From the NCBI RefSeq assembly GCF_000027125.1, contig NC_017626.1: a stretch of DNA of 64,000 nt. One strand, 5' to 3'. This stretch comes from Escherichia coli 042. GTDB taxonomy: Bacteria > Pseudomonadota > Gammaproteobacteria > Enterobacterales > Enterobacteriaceae. Shown here piece by piece: positions 6,001 to 9,000 of this stretch; position 1 is the first letter of the stretch, and each line of letters begins with the position of its first letter. The position numbers were made by a program.

Positions 6001-9000
6001 AACTTTTGCTTCAGTTGCTGCTCCAGCCAGAGATTTTCGTTGTAGTCATAGTTGATGGCGATGGTGACAATTCCCTGATCGCGGCCTCGTTTAAGCAAGC
6101 GGCTGATGGTGGTGCGGTAAATACCCAGTTCGCGCGCGATTTGCGCCTGCGTCATATCCTGTTCGTAATAGAGTTGGGCAATCTTCACAATCAAACGGAT
6201 ATCGTCACTGTTTTCCATTGCCGCCTCCTGGTTCTGCACATTTGTGCAAATACGCTTTCTCACCGCTTGATCTGATATAACCCCATCATGATGGCCTTTC
6301 AAAGCGATTTTTCACTCTTTGCATGGGGAGAAATAGCGCTTTCTCTTGCACATTTGTTTCTCTGCGTAGTAGTCATCAGCACAGGTGTGCAGCGATTCGT
6401 AATATGTTGATTATCCTTATTTTGCCAGGCAAATTTGCATCGTACTTCCGGAGACACTTTTGTGATAAAAGGCGTGGCAGATCACATTTAATTTCGACGT
6501 TGCCGCATAACCCTGTTTTTCCCCGCTAAGAGGTACGGTATATTCCGCGTTTTACAGGAGAATTTATGCTGCCCGACTCATCAGTCCGTTTAAATAAATA
6601 CATCAGCGAAAGCGGAATTTGCTCACGCCGCGAAGCGGATCGCTATATCGAGCAAGGCAATGTGTTCCTTAATGGCAAGCGAGCCACCATTGGCGATCAG
6701 GTGAAACCCGGCGACGTTGTGAAAGTAAACGGTCAGTTGATTGAGCCTCGGGAAGCCGAAGATTTGGTACTTATCGCCCTGAACAAGCCCGTCGGTATTG
6801 TCAGCACCACCGAAGATGGCGAGCGCGATAACATTGTCGATTTCGTTAACCACAGCAAACGCGTGTTCCCGATTGGCCGCCTGGATAAAGACTCCCAGGG
6901 GCTGATTTTCCTCACCAATCACGGCGATCTAGTGAATAAGATCCTCCGTGCGGGTAACGATCATGAGAAAGAGTATCTGGTGACGGTCGATAAACCGATT
7001 ACCGATGAATTTATTCGTGGTATGGGGGCGGGAGTGCCGATCCTCGGGACGGTGACTAAAAAGTGTAAAGTCAAAAAAGAAGCGCCGTTTGTCTTCCGCA
7101 TTACCCTGGTGCAGGGGCTGAACCGTCAGATCCGTCGCATGTGCGAGCACTTTGGTTACGAAGTGAAAAAGCTGGAACGTACGCGCATTATGAACGTCAG
7201 CTTAAGCGGCATTCCGCTAGGGGAGTGGCGCGATTTAACCGACGATGAGTTAATCGACCTCTTTAAGCTCATCGAAAATTCCTCTTCCGAGGCAAAACCT
7301 AAAGCGAAGGCCAAACCGAAAACTGTAGGCATCAAACGTCCAGTCGTTAAGATGGAAAAAACGGCGGAAAAAGGCGGTCGCCCGGCGTCCAACGGTAAGC
7401 GTTTTACCTCGCCGGGGCGAAAAAAGAAGGGGCGTTAATCAGCGCCTGCCGCGCGTCGACGTATTTGCTGACCAGCTAAATGACGCTTCAGGATCCGGTT
7501 TATAAGCCTGCTTTTTCTTCAATTGGCGGGCTTTTTTTGCTGCTGCTTCACGCTCAACCATCAGCTTATCGATGTACTCTTTTTTAATGCTGTTGGTTTC
7601 CGAATTAGTCAACACGCGACCATGCGCAATCCGCGCCCGATCCAGCAGTGTTTTAAGTTCACGCTGCTCGCGTTCAGTCATCTCTTTTTGGGTAATACGG
7701 GGGAGTGCCATGATGGTGCCCTCAGTGAGCCAGAGAGTTCAGTGTACGGGAATTCGTTTGCGAGCAGAACTGATAATATTCATTTGCCTTCTCTTAACTA
7801 TTTATCTCTTTCGATAATTAATTAGAGATGCAGAAAAAAATTAAAGGCAATTATTCTCCGATAAAGACGCTGGTTAACAGAGTACAGGCTCGTTTATTGA
7901 TGAGCATAGTGACAAGAAAATCAATACGGCCCGAAATATAGCTTCCAGGCCATACAGTATTTACTCAAACAAATTAAAATGCAGTTTTTGCACCACCTGC
8001 TCGGCATCTTCGCCGGGCACCAGGAAGCACAGGTTATGGCTGGATGCGCCGTAACAAATCATGCGAATGTTGAACGGTTCCAGTACGCCGAATACCTCTT
8101 TGCCAACGCCGCAGGCTTTTGACAGGTCATTGCCAATCAACGCGACCAGCGCCAGACCTTCCTCCACTTCTACCCGGCATAGTGCAGACAGCTCCATCAG
8201 CAGAGATTGCGTCAGCAAGGTATCGCCAGTGGAGGTTGAACCGGTGGTATCAAGGGTTAATGCCACGCTCACTTCTGACGTGGTGATTAAGTCTACCGAA
8301 ATATTATGCCGCGCGAGGATGCCGAAAACTTCCGCGAGGAAACCGCGAGAATGCAGCATATTCAGGCTGTGCAAAGTGAGCAGAGTCTGATTGCGACGAA
8401 GCGCCAGCGCGCGGAATAGCGGCGGATTTTCAGTTTTATTGCACACCAGCGTACCACCTGCGCGTGGGTCTTTGCTGGAGCCGACAAAGACCGGGATATC
8501 GCTACGTACTGCGGGTAGCAACGTTGCCGGATGCAGTACTTTTGCACCAAAAGTTGCCATCTCTGCCGCTTCGGCAAACGCGATTTCATCAATGCGTTTT
8601 GCTGCGGAAACTACGCGTGGATCGGTGGTGTAGATGCCCGGGACGTCGGTCCAGATATCAACACGAGATGCGTGTAAAGCCTCCGCCAGCAAGGCTGCCG
8701 TATAATCGCTGCCTCCACGGCCAAGCGTCGTTGTCCGACCTTTATTTTCGCTACCGATAAATCCCTGGGTGATCACTAAGCCTTCATTGAGGCGTGGGAG
8801 CAGCTGCAGCGCGGCCAGTTCCGCCAGCGCGGCTACATCTGGCTCTGCACGACCAAATCGGTCGTTGGTACGCATCACTTTACGTACATCAAACCACTGT
8901 GCCTGAACATCACGTTCGCGCAGGATCTCGACAAACAGCAGGGTCGACATCAGCTCGCCGTGGCTGACCAGTTCATCTGTCAGCGCCGGAGACGTTGCCA

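What the first reader, a model, noticed from the sequence alone, without database searches (positions are those of the whole stretch)
6235..6390. Three related TGCACA/TGTGCA inverted-repeat elements upstream of sorC as candidate operators
A perfect palindrome tgcaca-tt-tgtgca (6235-6248) lies 17 bp upstream of the proposed sorC start, with a half-site tgcacatttgtt (6347-6358) and a second palindrome gcaca-gg-tgtgc (6379-6390) further upstream. Reiterated dyads at this spacing are typical of operator arrays for SorC/DeoR-type repressor-activators. Their position relative to the two candidate sorC starts (6218 or 6302) also bears on which start is used.
Basis: seen in the sequence. Interest (0 to 1): 0.4.

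Follow-up and report, generated by a model that had tools for sequence, protein, structure and literature searches.

The report
Conserved SorC operator array of sor operon
The three TGCACA/TGTGCA repeats upstream of sorC are real, are kept at fixed positions in about 30 enterobacterial species, and are very probably the still-undefined DNA sites where the sorbose regulator SorC binds, so this is an ordinary but useful regulatory region.

Summary
All three elements are at the stated coordinates. One perfect dyad is not unusual, but reiteration of the motif in a 347-bp spacer occurs in at most 2 of 5000 shuffles.

In 29 enterobacterial sor loci, including K. pneumoniae, the proximal dyad TGCACA-AA-TGTGCA (O1) is invariant apart from one outer-base change (Serratia) and a central A-to-T (Kluyvera, Sodalis). 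The 'half-site' (O2) and the distal dyad (O3) lie 112 and 143 bp upstream of O1 in nearly all loci, although the DNA between them has diverged.

Three Firmicute regulators with the identical recognition helix (GIYRTTISR) control unrelated genes yet carry the same dyad. The layout (6-2-6) matches the solved B. subtilis DeoR half-operator, with one base different per arm.

That promoter would put O1 at about +20 to +33, and O2 and O3 at about -87 and -118.

ATG 6218 is the start codon. TTG 6302 lies in the predicted -35 hexamer.

Binding, the transcript start and any DNA loop are untested. Verdict: credible SorC operators, a new member of a known kind, of moderate interest.

The parts
6235..6248 (.). 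O1, the proximal full dyad TGCACA-TT-TGTGCA (sorC sense TGCACAAATGTGCA). It lies between the predicted promoter and the Shine-Dalgarno sequence, at about +20 to +33 of the predicted transcript start.
   Evidence: Of 29 enterobacterial loci, 25 have the identical 14-mer; Serratia has AGCACA, and two Kluyvera loci and Sodalis have a central A-to-T change that makes a perfect palindrome. Mean information content is 1.98 of 2 bits.
6347..6360 (.). O2, a degenerate dyad (sorC sense GAAACA-AA-TGTGCA). Only the promoter-proximal arm CAAATGTGCAA is conserved. Its centre is at about -86.5 of the predicted transcript start.
   Evidence: The conserved arm has 1.90 bits and the other arm 0.76 bits. It lies 112 bp from O1 in 24 of 25 species. 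In Kluyvera the same position holds a full dyad, TGCACAAACGTGCA.
6378..6391 (.). O3, the distal dyad aGCACA-GG-TGTGCa (consensus nGCACAnnnGTGCc). Its centre is at about -117.5 of the predicted transcript start.
   Evidence: It lies 143 bp from O1 in nearly all species. The arms have 1.78 bits while the central bases vary freely.
6453..6466 (.). O4, a fourth related dyad (sorC sense atCACAAAAGTGtc; core CACAAAAGTG). In several genera its right arm is GTGC, as in O3.
   Evidence: (D1). The core CACAAAAGTG is invariant in 23 of 25 species, and the 14-mer averages 1.52 bits. It is kept in loci that do not adjoin rluF: Pantoea, Serratia, Entomohabitans and Sodalis.
6468..6489 (-). CRP-like site AAATGTGATC-N6-aCGCc-TTT. 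The left half TGTGATC is invariant. The right half is weak in E. coli and better in other genera (ACACC; ACACA in Sodalis). It abuts O4, 19 bp centre to centre.
   Evidence: 1.54 bits. It is not among the matches with up to 2 mismatches to TGTGA-N6-TCACA in the window. Calling it a CRP site is an inference.
6274..6279 (-). Predicted -10 hexamer TATATC of the candidate promoter P1, inside the invariant block GGGTTATATCAGATCA (6269-6284). The predicted transcript start is at about 6267.
   Evidence: Position-weight scan: this is the top sorC-sense candidate in most of the 25 species. The block has 1.83 bits. The strict consensus scan found nothing because it requires a T at hexamer position 6.
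6297..6302 (-). Predicted -35 hexamer TTGAAA, 17 bp from the -10.
   Evidence: TTG partly conserved; reading frame upstream of the ATG is not conserved.
6307..6313 (-). Conserved A-tract GAAAAAT just upstream of the -35, resembling a proximal UP-element subsite.
   Evidence: Reading it as an UP element rests on my own knowledge of the UP consensus.
6224..6229 (-). Shine-Dalgarno sequence AGGAGG, 5 nt before the ATG.
5271..6218 (-). sorC, 315 aa, first gene of the sorCDFBAME operon. It encodes a SorC/DeoR-subfamily regulator.
   Evidence: The E-value against PDB 2W48 is 1.4e-183, and residues 1-50 are identical except D47E.

Best explanation
The elements are operators for SorC, the sorbose-operon regulator encoded by the adjacent first gene.

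Each 14-bp unit (TGCACA-NN-TGTGCA, a 6-2-6 layout) is the docking site for one dimer of SorC DNA-binding domains. This is how the B. subtilis DeoR domain dimer sits on TGAACA-AA-aTtTCA.

The sor control region holds a rigidly spaced array:
- O1, a perfect dyad just downstream of the predicted promoter and abutting the ribosome-binding site.
- O2, one arm conserved, centred at about -87.
- O3, a dyad centred at about -118.
- O4, a weaker dyad centred at about -193, next to a CRP-like site.

Proposed mechanism (inferred, not shown): without inducer, a SorC tetramer (a dimer of dimers) bridges O1 and an upstream site, probably O2, 112 bp away. This loops out or blocks the promoter and represses the operon, including sorC itself. 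Inducer loosens the dimer-dimer contact. O1 is then released, and SorC remaining on O2 and O3 helps RNA polymerase at a promoter with weak -35 and -10 hexamers. This would explain SorC's known dual role as repressor and activator.
For: Shown here:
1. The reiteration is not chance.
2. O1, O2 and O3 are conservation peaks in 25 aligned species (1.8-2.0 bits, against 0.3-0.9 bits in the spacers). Random placement of three blocks of the same sizes reaches their mean in only 34 of 20000 trials.
3. Spacing from O1 is fixed at 112, 143 and 219 bp (218 in this window) in almost all species, including loci not next to rluF and K. pneumoniae and Sodalis.
4. The one sizeable indel, in Kluyvera, is 11 bp, about one helical turn, and lies between O2 and the promoter.
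5. The motif tracks the recognition helix. Three of 3 Firmicute regulators with GIYRTTISR carry TGCACAATTGTGCT plus a second site 19-20 bp away, although their neighbouring genes are not sorbose genes. Only 1 of 14 distant homologues with other helices has a match with at most 1 mismatch.
6. The 6-2-6 layout matches the DeoR operator quoted in PMC11229326. There the left half is TGAACA-AA-ATTTCA and the right half is TTTACA-TA-TGTTCA. According to that paper the SorC DNA-binding domain is 48% identical to that of DeoR.
7. A conserved promoter candidate lies between O2 and O1.

From the literature: SorC is a tetramer whose paired DNA-binding domains could reach two DNA sites, it is both repressor and activator, and its operator had not been identified as of 2010 (PMC2943609).
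Against: - There are no binding data of any kind.
- The transcript start is only predicted, and the -10 hexamer (TATATC) lacks the usual final T. If transcription starts further upstream (alternative -10 GATAAT, 6410-6415), O2 and O3 would lie downstream of the start and the activation part of the model fails.
- No pair of sites has the roughly 2-turn (about 22 bp) spacing used by the solved DeoR and CggR tetramers. O3 and O2 are 31 bp apart.
- O1-O2 (112 bp) and O1-O3 (143 bp) are not whole numbers of turns at 10.5 bp per turn. 112 bp fits only the roughly 11.1 bp per turn that I recall being reported for loops in vivo.
- The CRP-like site, at about -211 of P1, is too far away for classical CRP activation.
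Confidence: 0.75

Rival explanations
1. The dyads are bound by a different protein, such as a global or enterobacteria-specific regulator, rather than by SorC.
For: No binding data exist. TGTGCA/TGCACA shares TGTG/CACA with CRP half-sites, and a CRP-like site is present in the same region.
Against: The same dyad occurs upstream of Firmicute regulators that share SorC's recognition helix but not its operon or its host's global regulators. The layout equals the DeoR half-operator. The arm spacing (N2) is wrong for CRP, which needs N6. The dyad occurs nowhere else in the 64-kb window.
Confidence: 0.07
2. O1 acts at the RNA level, as a 5'-UTR hairpin next to or overlapping the Shine-Dalgarno sequence that modulates sorC translation or mRNA stability. 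The upstream copies would be unrelated to this role.
For: O1 lies in the predicted 5' UTR. In most genera its 3' arm runs into the Shine-Dalgarno sequence (TGTGCAGGAG). The minimum-free-energy fold does contain the hairpin.
Against: The UTR fold is no more stable than its shuffles (z = -0.58). There is no Rfam match. There is no covariation, because the sequence itself is invariant. The same sequence recurs upstream of the predicted promoter, where it would not be transcribed, and recurs in Firmicute promoters overlapping -35 and -10 hexamers.
Confidence: 0.05
3. Only O1 is a functional operator, giving simple autorepression by a roadblock next to the start. The upstream copies would be activator sites of independent function or weak decoys, and there would be no DNA loop.
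For: O1 is by far the best and most conserved site. CggR represses from sites downstream of the start without a long loop (PMC11229326). The O1-O2 and O1-O3 distances are not in phase at 10.5 bp per turn.
Against: Spacing is rigidly conserved over about 250 bp despite sequence divergence. The Kluyvera indel is 11 bp, one helical turn. SorC is a tetramer with two pairs of DNA-binding domains. There is no partner site about 2 turns from O1.
Confidence: 0.3
4. The repeats are neutral leftovers, such as duplicated sequence or ends of the mobile sor island, with no regulatory role.
For: The sor operon is an accessory island absent from K-12.
Against: The elements are not at the island junction, which is near 6525. 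They are far more conserved than the flanking DNA across genera and across genomic contexts.
Confidence: 0.02

Closest known systems
Bacillus subtilis DeoR operator of dra-nupC-pdp (SorC/DeoR subfamily; PDB 8R7Y and 7BHY; PMC11229326)
   Same: - The regulator subfamily is the same (homeodomain-like HTH plus sugar-binding domain); the DNA-binding domains are 48% identical according to that paper.
- The site layout is the same 6-2-6, with one base different per arm (TGAACA against TGCACA).
- A full palindrome is combined with a second site in which only one arm is conserved, as O3 or O1 is with O2.
- The protein is a tetramer made of two dimers.
   Different: - The two DeoR half-operators are 22 bp apart and form one 39-bp operator overlapping the -35. 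The sor sites are 31, 76 and 112 bp apart and flank the predicted promoter.
- DeoR is only a repressor, whereas SorC is also an activator.
- The Firmicute SorC-like loci found here (L027-L029) do show DeoR-like 19-20 bp spacing.
Klebsiella pneumoniae sor operon and SorC (Woehrl et al. 1990; de Sanctis et al. 2009, PDB 2W48)
   Same: It is the orthologous system. E. coli SorC matches 2W48 at E = 1.4e-183 with an almost identical DNA-binding domain. The K. pneumoniae control region (L047) has the same layout of O1-O4 and TGTGATC.
   Different: Neither paper could be read here. According to PMC2943609 (2010), operators had been identified in this family only for DeoR and CggR, so the sites proposed here were apparently not defined experimentally at that time.
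Bacillus subtilis CggR operator (SorC/CggR subfamily)
   Same: The regulator is a tetramer. It is encoded by the first gene of the operon it controls and autoregulates. The operator lies downstream of the transcript start (+32 to +77), as O1 does. Inducer acts by loosening the dimer-dimer contact.
   Different: CggR has a winged-helix DNA-binding domain of another type, a different motif, and tandem sites about 2 turns apart. It has no upstream sites and no activator role.
Looping regulators that act from separated operators (AraC at araO2/araI, GalR at OE/OI, LacI, E. coli DeoR)
   Same: Several operators lie 100-220 bp apart on both sides of a promoter. A CRP-type site sits within the array. 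As with AraC, the regulator is both repressor and activator. The O2-O1 distance of 112 bp is close to the gal OE-OI distance of about 113 bp, a figure I am recalling from memory.
   Different: These are unrelated protein families. Looping at sor is only inferred from the geometry and from the conserved spacing.

Membership tests
Operator of a SorC/DeoR-subfamily regulator | An adjacent cognate regulator with an N-terminal HTH and a SorC-type sugar-binding domain | tested here: met
   sorC 5271-6218 matches PDB 2W48 at E = 1.4e-183 and DeoR 8R7Y at 4e-40. PF04198 is recorded for its homologues.
Operator of a SorC/DeoR-subfamily regulator | A site that is an inverted repeat of about 14-18 bp fitting one dimer of DNA-binding domains | tested here: met
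   TGCACA-NN-TGTGCA has the same 6-2-6 register as the DeoR left half-operator TGAACA-AA-ATTTCA and right half-operator TTTACA-TA-TGTTCA.
Operator of a SorC/DeoR-subfamily regulator | Two half-operators about 2 helical turns (about 22 bp) apart, bound by one tetramer | tested here: not met
   In Enterobacterales the centre-to-centre distances are 31, 76, 112 and 143 bp, and there is no partner 19-23 bp from O1, O2 or O3. The feature is met in the Firmicute homologue loci, at 19-20 bp.
Operator of a SorC/DeoR-subfamily regulator | The motif co-occurs with the regulator's recognition helix across taxa | tested here: met
   Three of 3 loci with GIYRTTISR carry it, against 1 of 14 loci with other helices.
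Operator of a SorC/DeoR-subfamily regulator | Direct, inducer-sensitive binding by the regulator | not testable with these tools
   This needs EMSA or footprinting. No report was found in the held literature.
DNA-looping control region (AraC, GalR or LacI type) | At least two operators about 90-250 bp apart that bracket the promoter | tested here: inconclusive
   O1 and O2/O3/O4 bracket the predicted P1 promoter, but the transcript start is not mapped.
DNA-looping control region (AraC, GalR or LacI type) | Dependence on the helical phase of the operator spacing | tested here: inconclusive
   Spacing is invariant in 24 of 25 species, and the single larger indel is 11 bp. This is suggestive only. 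112 bp is 10.7 turns at 10.5 bp per turn.
CRP-binding site | TGTGA-N6-TCACA with conserved GTG and CAC cores | tested here: inconclusive
   The left half is perfect and invariant. The right half is ACGCC in E. coli (2 of 5), ACACC in most genera and ACACA in Sodalis.
Cis-regulatory RNA element in the 5' UTR | A stable or covarying structure, or a match to a known RNA family | tested here: not met
   z = -0.58. There is no Rfam match with E below 0.9. The sequence is invariant, so there is no covariation.

The most novel reading that the evidence does not exclude
The founding member of the SorC family does not use the compact two-turn tandem operator seen for DeoR and CggR. Instead it uses an AraC-like long-range switch. 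Four SorC dyads and a CRP site are held at rigid spacing over about 250 bp. A tetramer loops O1 (downstream of the start) to O2, 112 bp away, to repress. On induction it releases O1 and activates from O2 and O3. This would be a new operating mode for the family and the physical basis of SorC's dual repressor and activator role.
Probability: 0.3. Interest if true: 0.55.

Novelty: new member of a known kind. Interest (0 to 1): 0.38.

Why it matters
SorC gave its name to a large family of sugar-responsive regulators. In the literature I could reach, however, its own DNA target is not defined, and its dual role as repressor and activator is unexplained.

The comparative evidence here gives a concrete 14-bp motif, four candidate sites at exact coordinates and a predicted promoter. 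Footprinting, point mutation and phase-insertion experiments can therefore be designed directly.

It also shows that the motif goes with the recognition helix YRTTISR across phyla. That can be used to predict regulons of uncharacterised SorC-like regulators. The sor operon itself has recently been linked to fitness and virulence of E. coli (PMC13410766).

Tried and rejected
- The strict sigma-70 and terminator consensus scan found nothing in 6100-6650. A softer position-weight scan was needed.
- The papers most likely to hold a mapped sor transcript start or a footprint are not held: Woehrl 1990 (PMID 2277638) and de Sanctis 2009 (PMID 19232357).
- Full-text searches for the motif itself and for SorC with operator, EMSA or regulon terms found nothing relevant. 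A LsrR binding-site search was unproductive.
- The supplements of the K. pneumoniae MGH 78578 transcript-start paper contain no sor or rluF entries.
- The large protein search listed only relatives with at least 70% identity among its best 120, so it did not extend the cross-phylum test. It did lead to the K. pneumoniae and Sodalis loci.
- The TTG 6302 start is rejected. The frame upstream of the ATG carries stops or is shifted in most genera.
- An RNA-element reading is rejected.
- A classical CRP role for the 6468-6489 site at the rluF promoter was considered, since it would be at about -72.5 of a TATATT -10 at 6539-6544. It was set aside because the site's distance to rluF varies (some species have rluF about 125 bp further away) and the site is kept in loci without rluF.
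- An upstream promoter P2 (-10 GATAAT, 6410-6415) is considered less likely. It lacks a usable -35 at a conserved spacing and scores lower.
- Partner sites about 22 bp from O1, O2 and O3 were looked for by eye. Only a weak TAAT-N6-ATTA block 22 bp from O3 and a TGCAAnTTTGC block with a TGCACA-like left arm were found. Neither convincingly matches the dyad.
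Full report
**Setting.** The finding lies in the 347-bp spacer between sorC and the divergent rluF gene. sorC occupies 5271-6218 on the minus strand and is the first gene of the L-sorbose operon sorCDFBAME (window 505-6218). rluF occupies 6566-7438 on the plus strand. RefSeq annotation of an identical E. coli region starts the regulator at the ATG corresponding to 6218. The protein matches the crystallised K. pneumoniae SorC (PDB 2W48) at E = 1.4e-183, with residues 1-50 identical except D47E. E. coli K-12 lacks the operon, and homology with K-12 ends about 50 bp upstream of the rluF ATG, near window 6525. 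Everything from 6219 to about 6525 therefore belongs to the sor module.

**Observation.**
- TGCACAttTGTGCA lies at 6235-6248.
- TGCACATTTGT at 6347-6357 is an exact 11-nt copy of the start of the first element.
- aGCACAggTGTGCa lies at 6378-6391.

In the whole window, TGCACANNTGTGCA with up to 2 mismatches matches only the two dyads. A single perfect 6-nt-arm dyad is not rare, since 37% of 5000 dinucleotide shuffles of the spacer have one. A second copy with at most 1 mismatch occurs in 2 of 5000 shuffles, an exact 11-nt repeat in 1 of 5000, and both together in none. What is significant is the reiteration, not the palindrome.

**Conservation.** A genome scan with SorC returned 27 enterobacterial loci. 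The genera are Escherichia, Pseudocitrobacter, Citrobacter, Klebsiella, Raoultella, Mangrovibacter, Serratia, Pantoea, Cedecea, Entomohabitans, Kluyvera and Enterobacter. Two more loci were fetched by exact protein look-up: K. pneumoniae, whose SorC is 313/315 identical to 2W48, and Sodalis.
- Read in the sorC sense, the proximal dyad TGCACAAATGTGCA (O1) is identical in 25 of the 29 loci. Serratia has AGCACA. Two Kluyvera loci and Sodalis have a central A-to-T change that makes the palindrome perfect.
- The distal dyad (O3, consensus nGCACAnnnGTGCc) starts 143 bp upstream of O1 in nearly all loci. The exceptions are Serratia at 144, Sodalis at 142 and Kluyvera (below).
- The 'half-site' (O2, nnnnCAAATGTGCAA) starts 112 bp upstream of O1 in nearly all loci.
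- In an alignment of 25 species, mean information content is 1.98 bits for O1, 1.90 bits for the conserved arm of O2 and 1.78 bits for the arms of O3. The intervening spacers have 0.3-0.9 bits. Random placement of three blocks of the same sizes reaches the observed mean in 34 of 20000 trials.
- The layout persists in loci where sor is not next to rluF (Pantoea, Serratia, Entomohabitans, Sodalis). It therefore belongs to sor and not to rluF.
- In Kluyvera the O2 position holds a full dyad (TGCACAAACGTGCA). An 11-bp deletion, about one helical turn, brings it to 101 bp from O1. O2 is thus best seen as a degenerate full site.

The same alignments reveal further conserved blocks.
- O4 (6453-6466; sorC sense atCACAAAAGTGtc) is a palindrome whose core CACAAAAGTG is invariant in 23 of 25 species. 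In several genera its right arm is GTGC. It differs from the O3 version in some genera (GCACAAAAGTGC) only at the outermost base of each arm.
- Directly abutting O4, 19 bp centre to centre, is AAATGTGATC-N6-aCGCc-TTT (6468-6489). Its left half TGTGATC is invariant. Its right half is ACACC in most genera and ACACA in Sodalis. This is a CRP-like site, weak on its right half in E. coli.
- Other conserved blocks are GGGTTATATCAGATCA (6269-6284), GAAAATnGCTTTG (6300-6313), AGAATCAAnnnATTA (6398-6416) and TGCAAnTTTGC (6430-6440).
- Distances from TGTGATC through O4, O3 and O2 to O1 are constant to within 1 bp in all 25 species, although the spacers have diverged heavily.

**Promoter and start codon.** The strict consensus scan finds no promoter. 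A softer position-weight scan puts TTGnnn-17-TATATC as the top sorC-sense candidate in most of the 25 species. In the window the -35 is TTGAAA (6302-6297) and the -10 is TATATC (6279-6274). With a start near 6267, the site centres fall as follows:

| Site | Centre relative to predicted start |
|---|---|
| O1 | +26.5 (spans +20 to +33) |
| O2 | -86.5 |
| O3 | -117.5 |
| O4 | -192.5 |
| CRP-like site | -211.5 |

This is a prediction only. A weaker alternative -10 (GATAAT, 6415-6410) would instead put O3 and O2 downstream of the start.

In most genera the frame upstream of the ATG contains stops. ATG 6218, preceded by AGGAGG at 6224-6229, is therefore the start. Most other genera start two codons earlier (M-A/T-M/I/T-E-N-S), with a Shine-Dalgarno sequence that overlaps the end of O1.

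**Whose sites are they?** Two independent lines point to SorC.

First, the motif follows the recognition helix. Three Firmicute regulators (Terrilactibacillus, Pseudalkalibacillus, Paenibacillus) are 43-48% identical to SorC overall and have the identical helix GIYRTTISR. All three carry TGCACAATTGTGCT or a near copy upstream, with a second dyad or single arm 19-20 bp away. The expectation by chance is about 0.003 per locus. In the two loci checked, the neighbouring genes are not sorbose genes but oxidoreductases of the GFO/IDH/MocA type and a ribose-5-phosphate-isomerase-like gene. Of 14 more distant homologues with other helices, only one has a match with at most 1 mismatch.

Second, the layout equals that of the solved relative. 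The B. subtilis DeoR operator quoted in PMC11229326 reads TGAACA-AA-ATTTCA (left half) and TTTACA-TA-TGTTCA (right half), with centres 22 bp apart. That is the same 6-2-6 register as TGCACA-AA-TGTGCA, with one base different per arm. It includes a second site in which only one arm is kept, as in O2. That paper states that the DNA-binding domains of SorC and DeoR are 48% identical, and that a domain dimer reads one palindrome while the tetramer bridges two.

**What is known.** PMC2943609 (2010) states that operators in this family had been identified only for DeoR and CggR. It also says that the SorC tetramer presents two pairs of DNA-binding domains about 70 Å apart, and that its dual repressor and activator behaviour might follow from a switch between tetramer and dimer. 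I found no later report of SorC sites in the held literature. The original Woehrl 1990 and de Sanctis 2009 papers could not be read. Prior description of these repeats therefore cannot be excluded.

**Mechanism.** The best-supported statement is that O1-O3, and probably O4, are SorC operators. Each would be read by one dimer of DNA-binding domains.

The rest is inferred. The sites are 31, 76 and 112 bp apart rather than about 22 bp, so one rigid tetramer cannot sit on two neighbouring sites as DeoR and CggR do. The sites flank the predicted promoter, and their spacing is held fixed. I therefore favour a loop or bridge between O1 and an upstream site for repression, and occupancy of O2 and O3 for activation after inducer weakens the dimer-dimer contact.
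- O2 is the likeliest upstream partner of O1. The 112 bp between them equals about 10.1 turns at the roughly 11.1 bp per turn that I recall for loops in vivo, and the Kluyvera deletion removes one turn.
- O2, O3 and O4 lie roughly on one face of the helix: 31, 76 and 107 bp correspond to 2.95, 7.2 and 10.2 turns at 10.5 bp per turn.
- A plain roadblock at O1 without a loop remains a serious alternative.
- An RNA role for O1 is unlikely. The fold is no better than its shuffles (z = -0.58), there is no Rfam match, and the same sequence recurs in DNA that should not be transcribed.

**Verdict.** The claim of 'typical spacing' is not supported. The feature is a new, computationally defined member of a known kind: operators of a SorC/DeoR-type regulator. 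Interest is moderate. It is not surprising in itself, but it makes the unresolved question of how the family's founding member binds DNA and switches between repression and activation directly testable.

Noticed in passing
window 6468-6489: A CRP-like site, AAATGTGATC-N6-aCGCc-TTT, with an invariant left half. It abuts the fourth dyad (O4) at a fixed 19 bp centre to centre. It lies about 211 bp upstream of the predicted sor start, too far for classical CRP activation, so its role is unclear (bending, co-binding with SorC, or another promoter).
   Followed up: partly
window 6398-6416 and 6430-6440: Two further conserved blocks of unknown role. AGAATCAAnnnATTA contains -10-like hexamers on both strands: GATAAT toward sorC, and nnTAAT toward rluF with a -35 overlapping O3. 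TGCAAnTTTGC has a left arm that resembles TGCACA. They may mark a second or divergent promoter, or degenerate SorC sites.
   Followed up: partly
window about 6525 (junction) and L046 (K-12): The sor island replaces everything more than about 50 bp upstream of the rluF start codon. In sor+ strains the region upstream of the rluF -10 (TATATT, 6539-6544) is therefore island DNA, and rluF expression might differ between sor+ and sor- E. coli.
   Followed up: partly
L023 and L024 (Kluyvera), 3001-4757: Between rluF and pepE, Kluyvera has a SorC-like regulator (70% identity, 307 aa) followed by a shikimate-dehydrogenase-like gene, with no sorbose PTS genes. O1 and a full-dyad O2 are still kept. This is either a remnant or a re-targeted regulator.
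   Followed up: partly
L027, L028, L029 (Firmicutes): SorC-like regulators with the identical recognition helix and the same dyad. In L027 and L028 they sit next to GFO/IDH/MocA oxidoreductase, glyoxalase-like and ribose-5-phosphate-isomerase-like genes; the neighbours in L029 were not checked. Sites are paired 19-20 bp apart and overlap -35/-10-like hexamers or abut the Shine-Dalgarno sequence. This looks like an uncharacterised regulon using the SorC motif.
   Followed up: partly
window 6283-6294 and 6328-6345: Perfect palindromes confined to the lineage of E. coli and Pseudocitrobacter. CCATCATGATGG lies in the spacer of the predicted promoter, and GAGAAA-N6-TTTCTC lies next to O2. Neither is conserved in other genera.
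   Followed up: no
window 6216-6234 compared with L005-L031: E. coli and Pseudocitrobacter use a different translation start context (AGGAGG-N5-ATG, protein MENS...). Most other genera start two codons earlier with a GGAG that overlaps the end of O1.
   Followed up: partly
L005, L006, L012, L013, L016, L031 (upstream of the sor module): In several Citrobacter, Klebsiella and Raoultella species rluF lies about 125 bp further from sorC than in E. coli. This implies an insertion between the rluF leader and the CRP-like site.
   Followed up: no
window about 9404-9600 (minus strand): A lysine riboswitch is annotated upstream of lysC in the identical RefSeq region (L001 11255-11451). It is ordinary and unrelated to the finding.
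   Followed up: no
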